Source: Octopus vulgaris (taxonomy: Eukaryota). Taken from it: a stretch of DNA of 64,000 nt. A program made the translations under genes and the position numbers. The notes under the pieces are model-generated. The model did no database searches. It was not told the DNA's origin and saw only the letters and a list, made by a program, of their open reading frames with translations. How positions within the stretch are numbered: the first letter of the stretch is position 1; each line of letters starts with the position of its first letter. Of the stretch, positions 25,596 through 60,165 are shown piece after piece. Location: NCBI GenBank assembly GCA_951406725.2, contig OX597835.1, positions 11,966,001 to 12,030,000 on the forward strand. The letters run 5' to 3'.

Positions 25596-25651
<56 letters not shown>

Positions 25652-25657
<6 letters not shown>

Positions 25658-25932
25658 AATATTAGGGAATAAATCCAAATTTACAGGGAAAAAATCAGAT
25701 TTAGGATTAAATCCAATTTTATAGTAAAATATTATATAATATTAATTCGAGACAAAACCACTATTTTGCAAAACAAATTAAAACAGATTAGGAGATCGAA
25801 AATCCACCTGACGAATGTCATTGAAGACATGAAACGATTGTAGTGGCGGTTTATTTCTTTATATTAAAAAAGTTTTATGTATTGATTAAGTCTTTCCTTG
25901 TTTGTTTTGCAAAATAGTGGTTTTGTCTCGAA

Positions 25933-25945
<13 letters not shown>
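25652..25945 (+). mobile_element. (AT)n-embedded element with 45-bp perfect inverted repeats (25733-25777 / 25901-25945) enclosing a hammerhead
   Basis: tatataatattaattcgagacaaaaccactattttgcaaaacaaa ... tttgttttgcaaaatagtggttttgtctcgaattaatattatata. Confidence 0.75.
25804..25846 (+). ncRNA. Minimal type I hammerhead ribozyme
   Basis: CCAC-CUGACGA-AUGUC(auugaa)GACAU-GAAA-CGAUUG-UA-GUGG: canonical core, perfect stems I and II, GUA site. Confidence 0.82.
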
Positions 25946-26018
<73 letters not shown>

Positions 26019-26194: not shown

Positions 26195-26417
26195 TCGTTC
26201 ATTCTTTTATTTGCTTCAGTCATTTGAGTGCGGCCATCCTGGAGCACCGCCTTAAAGGGCTTATTTTGTTTAGTCGAAGAAATCGCCCCTAGGACTTATT
26301 TTTTGTAAGCCTGGTGCCTAATCTATCGGTCTGTCTTGCAGAACATCTACGTTACGGGGAACTAAACACAACTACATCGGTTGTCAAGCGATGGTTGGGA
26401 CAAACGGAGACACAAAG

Positions 26418-59477: not shown

Positions 59478-59920
59478 TTTTTTTTTCTTCTTTCAAATTT
59501 GCTTCCATTTCTTGCCGAGTGTCTTCCCGACTCCTAGGGCAAAGAAACTCATAGTATACATTGGTAGGTCATTAAACTAAACTCAATAGTTCGTTCATTT
59601 TTTTTTTAAGTTAAATTAAAATACATGGGTAGTAATAATTCTCACATCGACAATGCTCTTCTCAATACGTGTGATGTACCAGTTAAGACAATCTTTTGTA
59701 CTTCTTGCAGGGATGGTAAGCCAGGGATCATTCTCATATAATTTTCGGTTCCCTTCTTGATCATTCCTAGTGCTCCTACGATCACTGGTATAGCAACCGC
59801 CTTGAGATGCCACATTTTCTCAATTTCAATGAGTAGGTCTTTATATTTTCTGAGCTTGTCAAACTCTTTCGCTGATATATTATGATCACAGGGGATGCTC
59901 ATGTCGATCAATAAGCAAAC

Positions 59921-59921
<1 letters not shown>
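59478..59921 (-). mobile_element. Young R4/Dong-type LINE 3' end (intact RLE C-terminus plus 3' UTR) flanked by (TAA)n on both sides
   Basis: LIDMSIPCDHNISAKEFDKLRKYKDL..IPVIVGALGMIKK..LQEVQKIVLTGTSHVLRRALS* with no stops. Confidence 0.9.
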
Positions 59922-59977
<56 letters not shown>

Positions 59978-59978
59978 T

Positions 59979-60020
<42 letters not shown>

Positions 60021-60165
60021 CTATTATTGTTGTTGTTGTTGTTGTCGTTGTTGTTGCTGGTGTTGTTGGTGTTGTTTGTGTTGTTTTGTCAGTCCAGTCC
60101 CGAAACTGGTTAAATCGACGATTGTTGAACCGTTATTTATTATACATACAGACACAGATATATAC

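What the first reader, a model, noticed from the sequence alone, without database searches (positions are those of the whole stretch)
25733..25945. Canonical hammerhead enclosed in the loop of a perfect 45-bp inverted repeat
CCAC-CUGACGA-AUGUC(auugaa)GACAU-GAAA-CGAUUG-UA-GUGG at 25804-25846 satisfies all core positions, with predicted cleavage after GUA (25842). It lies inside the 123-nt spacer of perfect arms 25733-25777 / 25901-25945, and the whole unit is flanked by (AT)n. A + strand transcript would form a long stem with a self-cleaving module in its loop. Perfect arms suggest a young insertion.
Basis: partly seen in the sequence, partly recalled or inferred. Interest (0 to 1): 0.72.

Follow-up and report, generated by a model that had tools for sequence, protein, structure and literature searches.

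The report
Spliced Penelope leader copied head-to-head
The hairpin with a ribozyme motif in its loop is one of hundreds of short, intron-less, mirror-image pieces of a Penelope-type jumping gene, likely copied twice from the front end of the element's spliced message into one DNA cut; this copy likely does nothing, but the family bears on the open question of which RNA these elements copy and why their long copies keep the intron.

Summary
Observation confirmed: exact 45-bp arms and all hammerhead core positions. The unit is really 292 bp (25654-25945): a 5'-truncated terminal repeat (pLTR) of a Penelope-like retrotransposon with Hydra-clade motifs, its inverted partial copy and a 79-bp 'tail', inside (TA)n. 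The hammerhead is the minimal, dimer-type pLTR motif, not a canonical monomer. The inverted repeat is a by-product of insertion; arm length varies from copy to copy. The less ordinary part: long copies carry a GT-AG intron that this copy lacks precisely (25794/25795). Exact spliced junction 225 times, intron-bearing acceptor 62 times; sister subfamily 119 versus 434. Spliced arms mostly stop 27 nt upstream of the junction; 11 of 11 intron-bearing donors run past that point. Inverted insertions have exactly one tail in 64 of 65 classifiable cases, on either arm, with matching haplotype and splice state. Best reading: a sense, spliced, uncleaved RNA primed twice. No RNA evidence was obtained. 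The scan found this kind of copy before in several other genomes; I found no paper on it.

The parts
25598..25653 (.). (TA)n target, left side
   Evidence: 161 of 176 arm-end junctions in fetched copies are followed by a TA-type repeat, loose pattern
25654..25732 (-). 79-bp 'tail' of the pLTR, inverted; in ORF-linked copies it follows the arm and ends 58 nt before the ATG
25733..25777 (-). Left arm: inverted partial copy of exon 2 (+107 to +151 from the splice junction), continuous with the tail
25775..25777 (.). 3-nt overlap (AAA) at which the inverted and the sense copy are joined
   Evidence: L001 1626-1628 belongs to both alignments
25775..25794 (+). Last 20 nt of the 27-nt first exon of the element's leader
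25794..25795 (+). Precise splice junction; long copies carry a GT...AG intron of about 0.6-1.6 kb here
25795..25945 (+). Exon 2 up to the tail-less 3' end; differs from the ORF-linked, intron-bearing copy L110 by three mismatches and one-base gaps in 151 nt
25804..25846 (+). Minimal type I hammerhead motif; helix I may extend over a 5-nt bulge (25795-25798 with 25847-25850); predicted cut after 25842; helix III/loop 25834-25841 is self-complementary
25901..25945 (+). Right arm: 3' end of exon 2, ending in the TA-rich site where tail-less copies end
25946..26013 (.). (TA)n target, right side

Best explanation
This is an intron-less, head-to-head double copy of the terminal repeat of a Penelope-like retrotransposon with Hydra-clade motifs, likely reverse-transcribed from the 5' leader of the element's spliced sense RNA and likely inert. 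Shown: membership of the family, precise loss of a GT-AG intron, a 5' limit 27 nt upstream of the junction, one tail per inverted insertion, matching arms. Inferred mechanism: the pLTR promoter starts RNA at about -27, the intron is spliced, and the RT/GIY-YIG protein cuts both strands of (TA)n. Each cut end primes cDNA at one of two internal start sites 79 nt apart (arm end and tail end) on the same uncleaved RNA. One cDNA end then anneals to the other at a few matching bases (AAA here) and repair fills in. Because priming is inside the leader and copying runs 5'-ward, spliced mRNA can only yield these short ORF-less pieces. ORF-bearing copies would need read-through RNA whose downstream pLTR kept the intron, which would explain intron retention. 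The hammerhead is the family's pLTR ribozyme, predicted to work only as a dimer or with protein help, and it had not cut the template.
For: Family and parent. Splicing: 225 spliced vs 62 acceptor and 11 donor exact matches; six exon-1 variants occur both with and without the intron. Two insertions in the sister subfamily begin with a second exon-1 copy joined further upstream, in L292 at an AG. 5' limit: 112 of 119 spliced arms end at or inside -27. Of all 46 exact matches reaching -27, 41 end within 5 nt of it, against 0 of 11 intron-bearing donors, which run 90 nt or more (Fisher p = 2e-8; two arms of one insertion counted separately). Sister subfamily: 24 of 30. All 14 of the 20 best ORF loci that have an upstream hammerhead region keep the intron acceptor; none of 133 partly redundant spliced-junction loci holds intron ends or ORF. 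Of 82 inverted insertions: one tail in 64, none in 1, two in 0, 17 unclassifiable. Tail on the long arm 20, on the short arm 17, 8 others. Arms share haplotype in 80 of 90 pairs, 29 sharing a minority type against 5.5 expected, maximum 13 in 5000 permutations. Splice state: 26 both spliced, 5 both unspliced, 8 unclear, 0 mixed of 39. In vitro, an anole Penelope protein cuts and extends both target strands, starts at two internal sites that bound the tail, and uses uncleaved RNA (PMC11167929).
Against: No RNA evidence: no run on record as RNA holds the stretch, so start site, splicing and cleavage are read from DNA only. The 5' limit leaks: L070, L078 (-97/-99), L218 (-42) and L271 (over 300 nt) are spliced yet run upstream. 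An extra G before -27, the sign of a cap, is seen in 20 of 35 against 19 of 94 controls but in only 1 of 7 in the sister subfamily. The recurrent -27/-24 junction has the tail on the -27 arm in 9 of 10 scorable copies of this subfamily, as a snap-back of one cDNA would give, so two routes may coexist. Matching arms could also come from subfamilies being active at different times or from later conversion between arms. Pfam does not recognise the ORF itself; clade assignment rests on motifs, no tree was built.
Confidence: 0.62

Rival explanations
1. Same origin (spliced sense leader of this Penelope-like element), but the inverted arm is made by snap-back of a single cDNA on itself; copies like this one, with the tail on the short arm, arise by later flipping of the spacer between the arms.
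For: Gives matching arms and splice state automatically. The recurrent -27/-24 junction is tail-biased 9 of 10. Self-priming was proposed from junction palindromes in PMC3846280.
Against: Snap-back alone cannot put the tail on the short arm, seen in 17 of 37. Flipping to near 50% would be needed in young copies with short arms. Tail-less cDNAs are common among single arms (23 of 38) yet a no-tail inverted insertion occurs once in 65.
Confidence: 0.22
2. The short copies are a self-propagating non-autonomous family (SINE- or retrozyme-like) descended from one or a few spliced master copies and mobilised in trans.
For: Spliced arms outnumber intron-bearing acceptors 225 to 62 in this subfamily; high homogeneity; a preprint derives animal retrozymes from pLTRs (10.64898/2026.07.22.740005).
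Against: Each of six exon-1 variants, and both arm-end haplotypes, has its own intron-bearing counterpart; junctions differ from copy to copy; the ratio reverses in the sister subfamily (119 vs 434). Retrozyme-type tandem arrays were not seen, apart from one short tandem locus (L288).
Confidence: 0.1
3. One reading: a functional RNA hairpin that displays an active monomeric hammerhead and cleaves a host or element transcript at 25842/25843.
For: Core and helices I-III invariant in 16 chosen variants while loop 2 varies in length and sequence; perfect arms.
Against: Conservation belongs to the parent pLTR. Arm length is random. The catalytic monomer fold is 2.7 kcal/mol above the predicted minimum of the isolated motif and nearly unpopulated in context. 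Minimal PLE hammerheads showed no monomer activity and low dimer activity (PMC4209133). No arm ends at the cut site.
Confidence: 0.04
4. A MITE or fold-back DNA transposon whose terminal inverted repeats happen to enclose a hammerhead.
For: Terminal-looking inverted repeats, TA flanks, short non-coding unit, many copies.
Against: The repeats are variable-length copies of internal sequence, one end carries a 79-bp extension, the sequence is the leader of an RT/GIY-YIG ORF, and an intron is lost precisely.
Confidence: 0.01

Closest known systems
Hydra clade of C-terminal EN+ Penelope-like elements (Craig et al. 2021, PMC8557442; section 11 and passages read)
   Same: Single ORF with RT and C-terminal GIY-YIG; DKT, CxCx5C, CxxC..E..N..CxH; hammerhead in the pLTR; (TA)n targets; 5'-truncated copies with an adjacent inverted copy and a tail at one end.
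   Different: Tail 79 bp against the 30-40 bp given for PLEs; RWK reads KWK here; ORF about 840 aa with an Asn-rich insert; a large class of precisely spliced short copies, whereas the paper stresses intron retention and calls its significance unknown.
Drosophila virilis Penelope pLTR (PMC2377424, passages; PMC4209133, main text)
   Same: 5'-leader intron shortly downstream of the RNA start (46 bp there, 27 nt inferred here); intron end next to helix I of the hammerhead; inverted terminal repeats of variable size.
   Different: Intron 75 bp there, about 0.6-1.6 kb here. Those passages describe spliced RNA but intron-keeping genomic copies; here hundreds of genomic copies lack the intron.
Minimal type I hammerheads of metazoan PLEs (PMC4209133)
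   Same: Short helix I (4 bp core), 2-bp helix III with palindromic loop, mostly dispersed single motifs tied to truncated PLEs, opposite-strand pairs close together.
   Different: The conserved G10.1-C11.1 pair is absent: the pair next to the core is A-U in 5, U-A in 3 and unpaired in 8 of 16 variants.
Anolis Poseidon element PAc in vitro (PMC11167929, main text and part of methods read)
   Same: Two 3' ends bounding a tail, AT-rich target, uncleaved hammerhead in the template.
   Different: Different clade; there the start sites lie inside the ORF, here 58 and about 137 nt before the ATG; spliced templates and inverted products are not analysed in the text read.
L1 twin priming (recalled, not from a call)
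   Same: Both target strands prime on one RNA; pieces joined head to head at a short overlap.
   Different: In L1 the two pieces do not overlap, giving an inversion; here the same stretch is present twice, giving an inverted repeat.

Membership tests
EN+ Penelope-like element (pLTR fragment) | Sequence is the terminal repeat of an ORF with RT and GIY-YIG | tested here: met
   pLTR-ORF-pLTR in L102, L261, L262; 12 of the 20 best loci have stop-free frames of 820 aa or more; YRDD and VVY..YIG motifs. Pfam: no hit for the ORF itself, sub-threshold RVT_1 in 2 and GIY-YIG in 2 of 20 proteins scanned; profile vs PDB only E = 0.44 to an RT.
EN+ Penelope-like element (pLTR fragment) | Adjacent inverted 5'-truncated copy and a tail at one end | tested here: met
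   64 of 65 classifiable inverted insertions have exactly one tail; scheme in PMC8557442.
EN+ Penelope-like element (pLTR fragment) | Intron retained in genomic copies | tested here: inconclusive
   Met by long and ORF-linked copies; not met by this copy and 225 exact-junction arms. This is the variant feature.
Hydra clade | DKT in place of DKG | tested here: met
   DKT at residue 128 of the L261 ORF.
Hydra clade | CxCx5C linker; CxxC and CxH around conserved E and N | tested here: met
   the same motifs in 22-24 of 33 long homologues.
Hydra clade | N-terminal RWK motif | tested here: inconclusive
   RIKWK here; RIRWR in a related family of the same genome; RWK/RWR-type match in 17 of 33 homologues.
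Hydra clade | (TA)n target and hammerhead in pLTR | tested here: met
Hydra clade | Phylogenetic placement with named Hydra RTs | not tested
   No named reference sequences were on hand; the paper's supplements were not opened.
Type I hammerhead, minimal/dimeric | CUGANGA, GAAA, UH core with helices I and II | tested here: met
   Invariant in 15-16 of 16 variants; 95% of cells paired, but 10 of 17 pairs never vary, so covariation support is weak: 3 pairs with double change, 28 of 500 shuffles as high.
Type I hammerhead, minimal/dimeric | Palindromic helix III loop allowing a dimer | tested here: met
   8-nt self-duplex -5.8 kcal/mol; loop variants pair A-U 11, G-U 3, G-C 2 at the outer and A-U 14 of 16 at the inner position.
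Canonical monomeric hammerhead | Stable helix III, G10.1-C11.1, Rfam match | tested here: not met
Type I hammerhead, minimal/dimeric | Self-cleavage activity | not testable with these tools
   Needs in vitro transcription.
Non-LTR retrozyme | Head-to-tail tandem units each with a hammerhead | tested here: not met
   One copy in the window; family copies are single or head-to-head.
MITE / fold-back DNA transposon | Fixed terminal inverted repeats | tested here: not met
   Arm overlap about 13-179 bp, tail outside one arm.

The most novel reading that the evidence does not exclude
Penelope-like elements copy sense RNA by coordinated twin priming at two fixed internal sites on one uncleaved molecule. 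Their spliced mRNA therefore yields only short fold-back copies of the capped leader, and only unspliced read-through RNA can carry the ORF. This would settle the antisense-versus-sense template question, explain intron retention as a consequence of where priming starts, and make these short copies a genomic map of each element's start site and splice junction.
Probability: 0.5. Interest if true: 0.7.

Novelty: new variant of a known kind. Interest (0 to 1): 0.5.

Why it matters
The locus itself is ordinary transposon debris. The family matters because the PLE replication cycle is unresolved. PMC3846280 left open whether inverted ends and intron retention come from an antisense template or an unspliced sense one; PMC8557442 calls the significance of intron retention unknown and the origin of tandem/inverted structures a next task. 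An antisense RNA would not be spliced, so precisely spliced copies that have the full inverted-plus-tail architecture point to a sense template. The one-tail rule on either arm connects the two in vitro start sites of PMC11167929 to the inverted ends. The genome holds intact ORFs and hundreds of products, so the model can be tested by census and by an in vitro assay with spliced and unspliced RNA.

Tried and rejected
Rfam found nothing at gathering score or up to E = 10. Pfam gave no meaningful hit on the four ORF pieces or the intact ORF; single-sequence and profile searches of solved structures gave nothing significant. Hammerhead cleavage as the source of arm ends: rejected, 0 of 46 at +49 and 5 within +45 to +53. 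Cap-derived G: not replicated in the sister subfamily, kept as a weak hint. A single fold-back master: rejected for the recurrent -27/-24 junction, which occurs on both arm haplotypes and in the sister subfamily. Microhomology deletion instead of splicing: rejected, since the loss follows GT/AG in variants whose exon 1 ends in GAG, AAG, AAA or TAA. A host gene around the site: none evident among 51 long open frames of the window, nearly all simple-repeat frames; introns of a host gene cannot be excluded. The look-up of earlier findings by sequence found nothing. Literature searches for spliced or intron-less genomic PLE copies and for twin priming in PLEs listed no paper reporting them, judged from listings except for the six papers opened. 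Arkhipova 2003, Evgen'ev and Arkhipova 2005 and all supplements were not seen and may bear on this.

Full report
Observation. The arms 25733-25777 and 25901-25945 are exact reverse complements over 45 bp and cannot be extended. The hammerhead-like motif at 25804-25846 is as described. Helix III is only 2 bp with a GAUU loop, and the 8-mer around it pairs with itself (-5.8 kcal/mol). Rfam has no match. In a + strand transcript the arms pair (probability 1.0 at a sampled pair) while sampled hammerhead pairs have 0.00-0.07; the isolated motif's catalytic fold is -5.9 against a minimum of -8.6 kcal/mol. These are predictions without tertiary contacts.

A family, not a one-off. The window lies in a 2.8-Gb animal genome (its size and microsatellite load recall an octopus; recalled, not tested). 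Searches gave 1298 and 919 first-look candidates, 40 scored each. Copies consist of a sense piece and often an inverted piece joined head to head, in (TA)n. The element here starts at 25654: 79 bp outside the left arm continue the inverted piece. Among 82 distinct inverted insertions holding the exact spliced junction, arm overlap runs from about 13 to 179 bp (two cases have no overlap), 64 carry the 79-bp tail on exactly one arm, 1 on neither, 0 on both, and 17 could not be classed; 38 single arms end at the arm end 23 times, the tail end 14 times, elsewhere once. This is the PLE architecture of PMC8557442 (passages read).

The parent. Walking upstream led to pLTR-ORF-pLTR units. Of the 20 best RT matches, 12 have stop-free frames of 820 aa or more. 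The 840-aa ORF of L261 has RIKWK, DKT, YRDD, CxCx5C, VVY..YIG and CxxC..E..N..CxH, matching the Hydra description (section read) except RWK. It has 244 relatives at E <= 1e-30 among 1.84 billion representatives, and 33 long ones mostly share these motifs. Pfam gives only sub-threshold RT and GIY-YIG hits, each on 2 of 20 proteins. The window's exon 2 differs from the ORF-linked copy L110 by three mismatches and one-base gaps.

The intron. Long copies have a GT...AG intron exactly between the window's positions 25794 and 25795 (1148 nt in L109; 1559 nt in L101). Exact genome-wide counts: spliced junction 225, intron-bearing acceptor 62, donor 11; sister subfamily 119 spliced, 434 acceptors; reversed-pattern controls 0. 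Exact patterns miss mutated copies, and the two arms of one insertion count twice. Six exon-1 variants exist in both states. All 14 of 20 ORF loci with an upstream hammerhead region keep the acceptor; none of 133 partly redundant spliced loci shows intron ends or ORF within the fetched flanks of 0.65-1.5 kb.

The 5' limit. Of 119 spliced arms, 112 end at or inside 27 nt upstream of the junction. Of all 46 exact matches that reach -27, 36 scored -27 exactly, 5 scored -28 to -32, one -42 and four (two insertions) -97/-99; all 11 intron-bearing donors run 90 nt or more (p = 2e-8). In the sister subfamily 24 of 30 arms end at or inside -27; of the 6 others, 3 arms (two insertions) start with a second exon-1 copy joined further upstream, 2 arms (one insertion) run over 300 nt and 1 ends at -31. 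The base context at -27 resembles an initiator (consensus recalled; a TCACT initiator-like site is noted for a rotifer pLTR in PMC3846280). An extra G before -27 is enriched here (20 of 35 vs 19 of 94), many at one recurrent junction, but not in the sister subfamily (1 of 7). In D. virilis Penelope the intron lies 46 bp after the start site and most transcripts are spliced (PMC2377424, passages). I infer that -27 is the RNA start; this is not shown.

How the inverted repeat forms. Both arms agree in haplotype in 80 of 90 pairs, with no pair mixing the two common types, and in splice state (0 mixed of 39, 8 unclear). Where only one arm spans the junction, the tail is on the long arm 20 times and the short arm 17 times, 8 unclassed; the window is of the second kind, joined at a 3-nt overlap. 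Snap-back of one cDNA gives only the first kind; free use of two RNAs would give no-tail and two-tail products. Two coordinated primings on one RNA fit both. PMC11167929 (main text read) found cleavage and extension of both strands, two start sites bounding the tail, a predicted dimer, and uncleaved RNA as substrate. Against a single route: the recurrent -27/-24 junction has the tail on the -27 arm in 9 of 10 scorable cases. PMC3846280 (nearly whole text read) favoured an antisense template because introns are retained; spliced fold-back copies argue for sense RNA, at least for this class.

The hammerhead. In 16 hand-picked variants the core, helix I, four pairs of helix II and helix III are invariant or nearly so while loop 2 varies; covariation is weak because most pairs never change, and the pair next to the core is unpaired in 8 of 16. 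It fits the minimal PLE hammerheads, which had no monomer and low dimer activity (PMC4209133, main text read). No arm begins at the cut site (0 of 46), and copies span the site, so the templates were uncleaved.

Known and new. The element, its inverted end, tail and hammerhead are known PLE features. The abundant precisely spliced leader copies and the one-tail rule were not found in nine literature searches; the retrozyme preprint 10.64898/2026.07.22.740005 (first part and passages read) does not treat them in what I saw; supplements were not seen. I reached this reading; the scan's notes, opened, show the same reading from other genomes, unreviewed, and are no independent support. Verdict: real feature, inert copy, new variant of a known kind, interest 0.5.

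Noticed in passing
L266 and L292 (G000:C1:51338623-51341645; C5:130727205-130730227): Copies that look spliced twice: an exon-1 copy joined to sequence upstream of a second exon 1, which is itself spliced to exon 2; in L292 the first join follows an AG of the parent.
   Followed up: partly
L070, L078 (G000:C3:40585563-40588662; C16:9850176-9853253): Two independent spliced insertions end at -97/-99, possibly a second start site.
   Followed up: no
L261:2910-5429, L255:238-2685: The ORF carries a long asparagine-rich stretch between RT and endonuclease, like the N-rich inserts of rotifer Penelopes in PMC3846280.
   Followed up: no
L257:2696-5778, L259, L260 (G000:C2:168267500-168277400 and others): Further Hydra-like families at about 50% protein identity; L257 has a different minimal hammerhead with a G-C pair next to the core and frames up to 955 aa.
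   Followed up: partly
L288 (G000:C5:64450115-64453137): Three tandem spliced-leader units about 107 bp apart, each with a hammerhead: a small retrozyme-like array that could fold as a dimer.
   Followed up: no
L101 and L102 introns: The intron and upstream pLTR are built of degenerate repeats of a few hundred bases whose number varies, giving intron lengths from about 0.6 to 1.6 kb.
   Followed up: partly
window 59642-60088 (-): Open frame ending in a non-repetitive stretch (KVCLLID...GTSHVLRRALSM) that looks like the C-terminal end of a non-LTR retrotransposon protein (recalled, not tested).
   Followed up: no
window 26230-26410: Fragment of another common interspersed repeat just right of the element; similar sequence flanks several fetched loci.
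   Followed up: no
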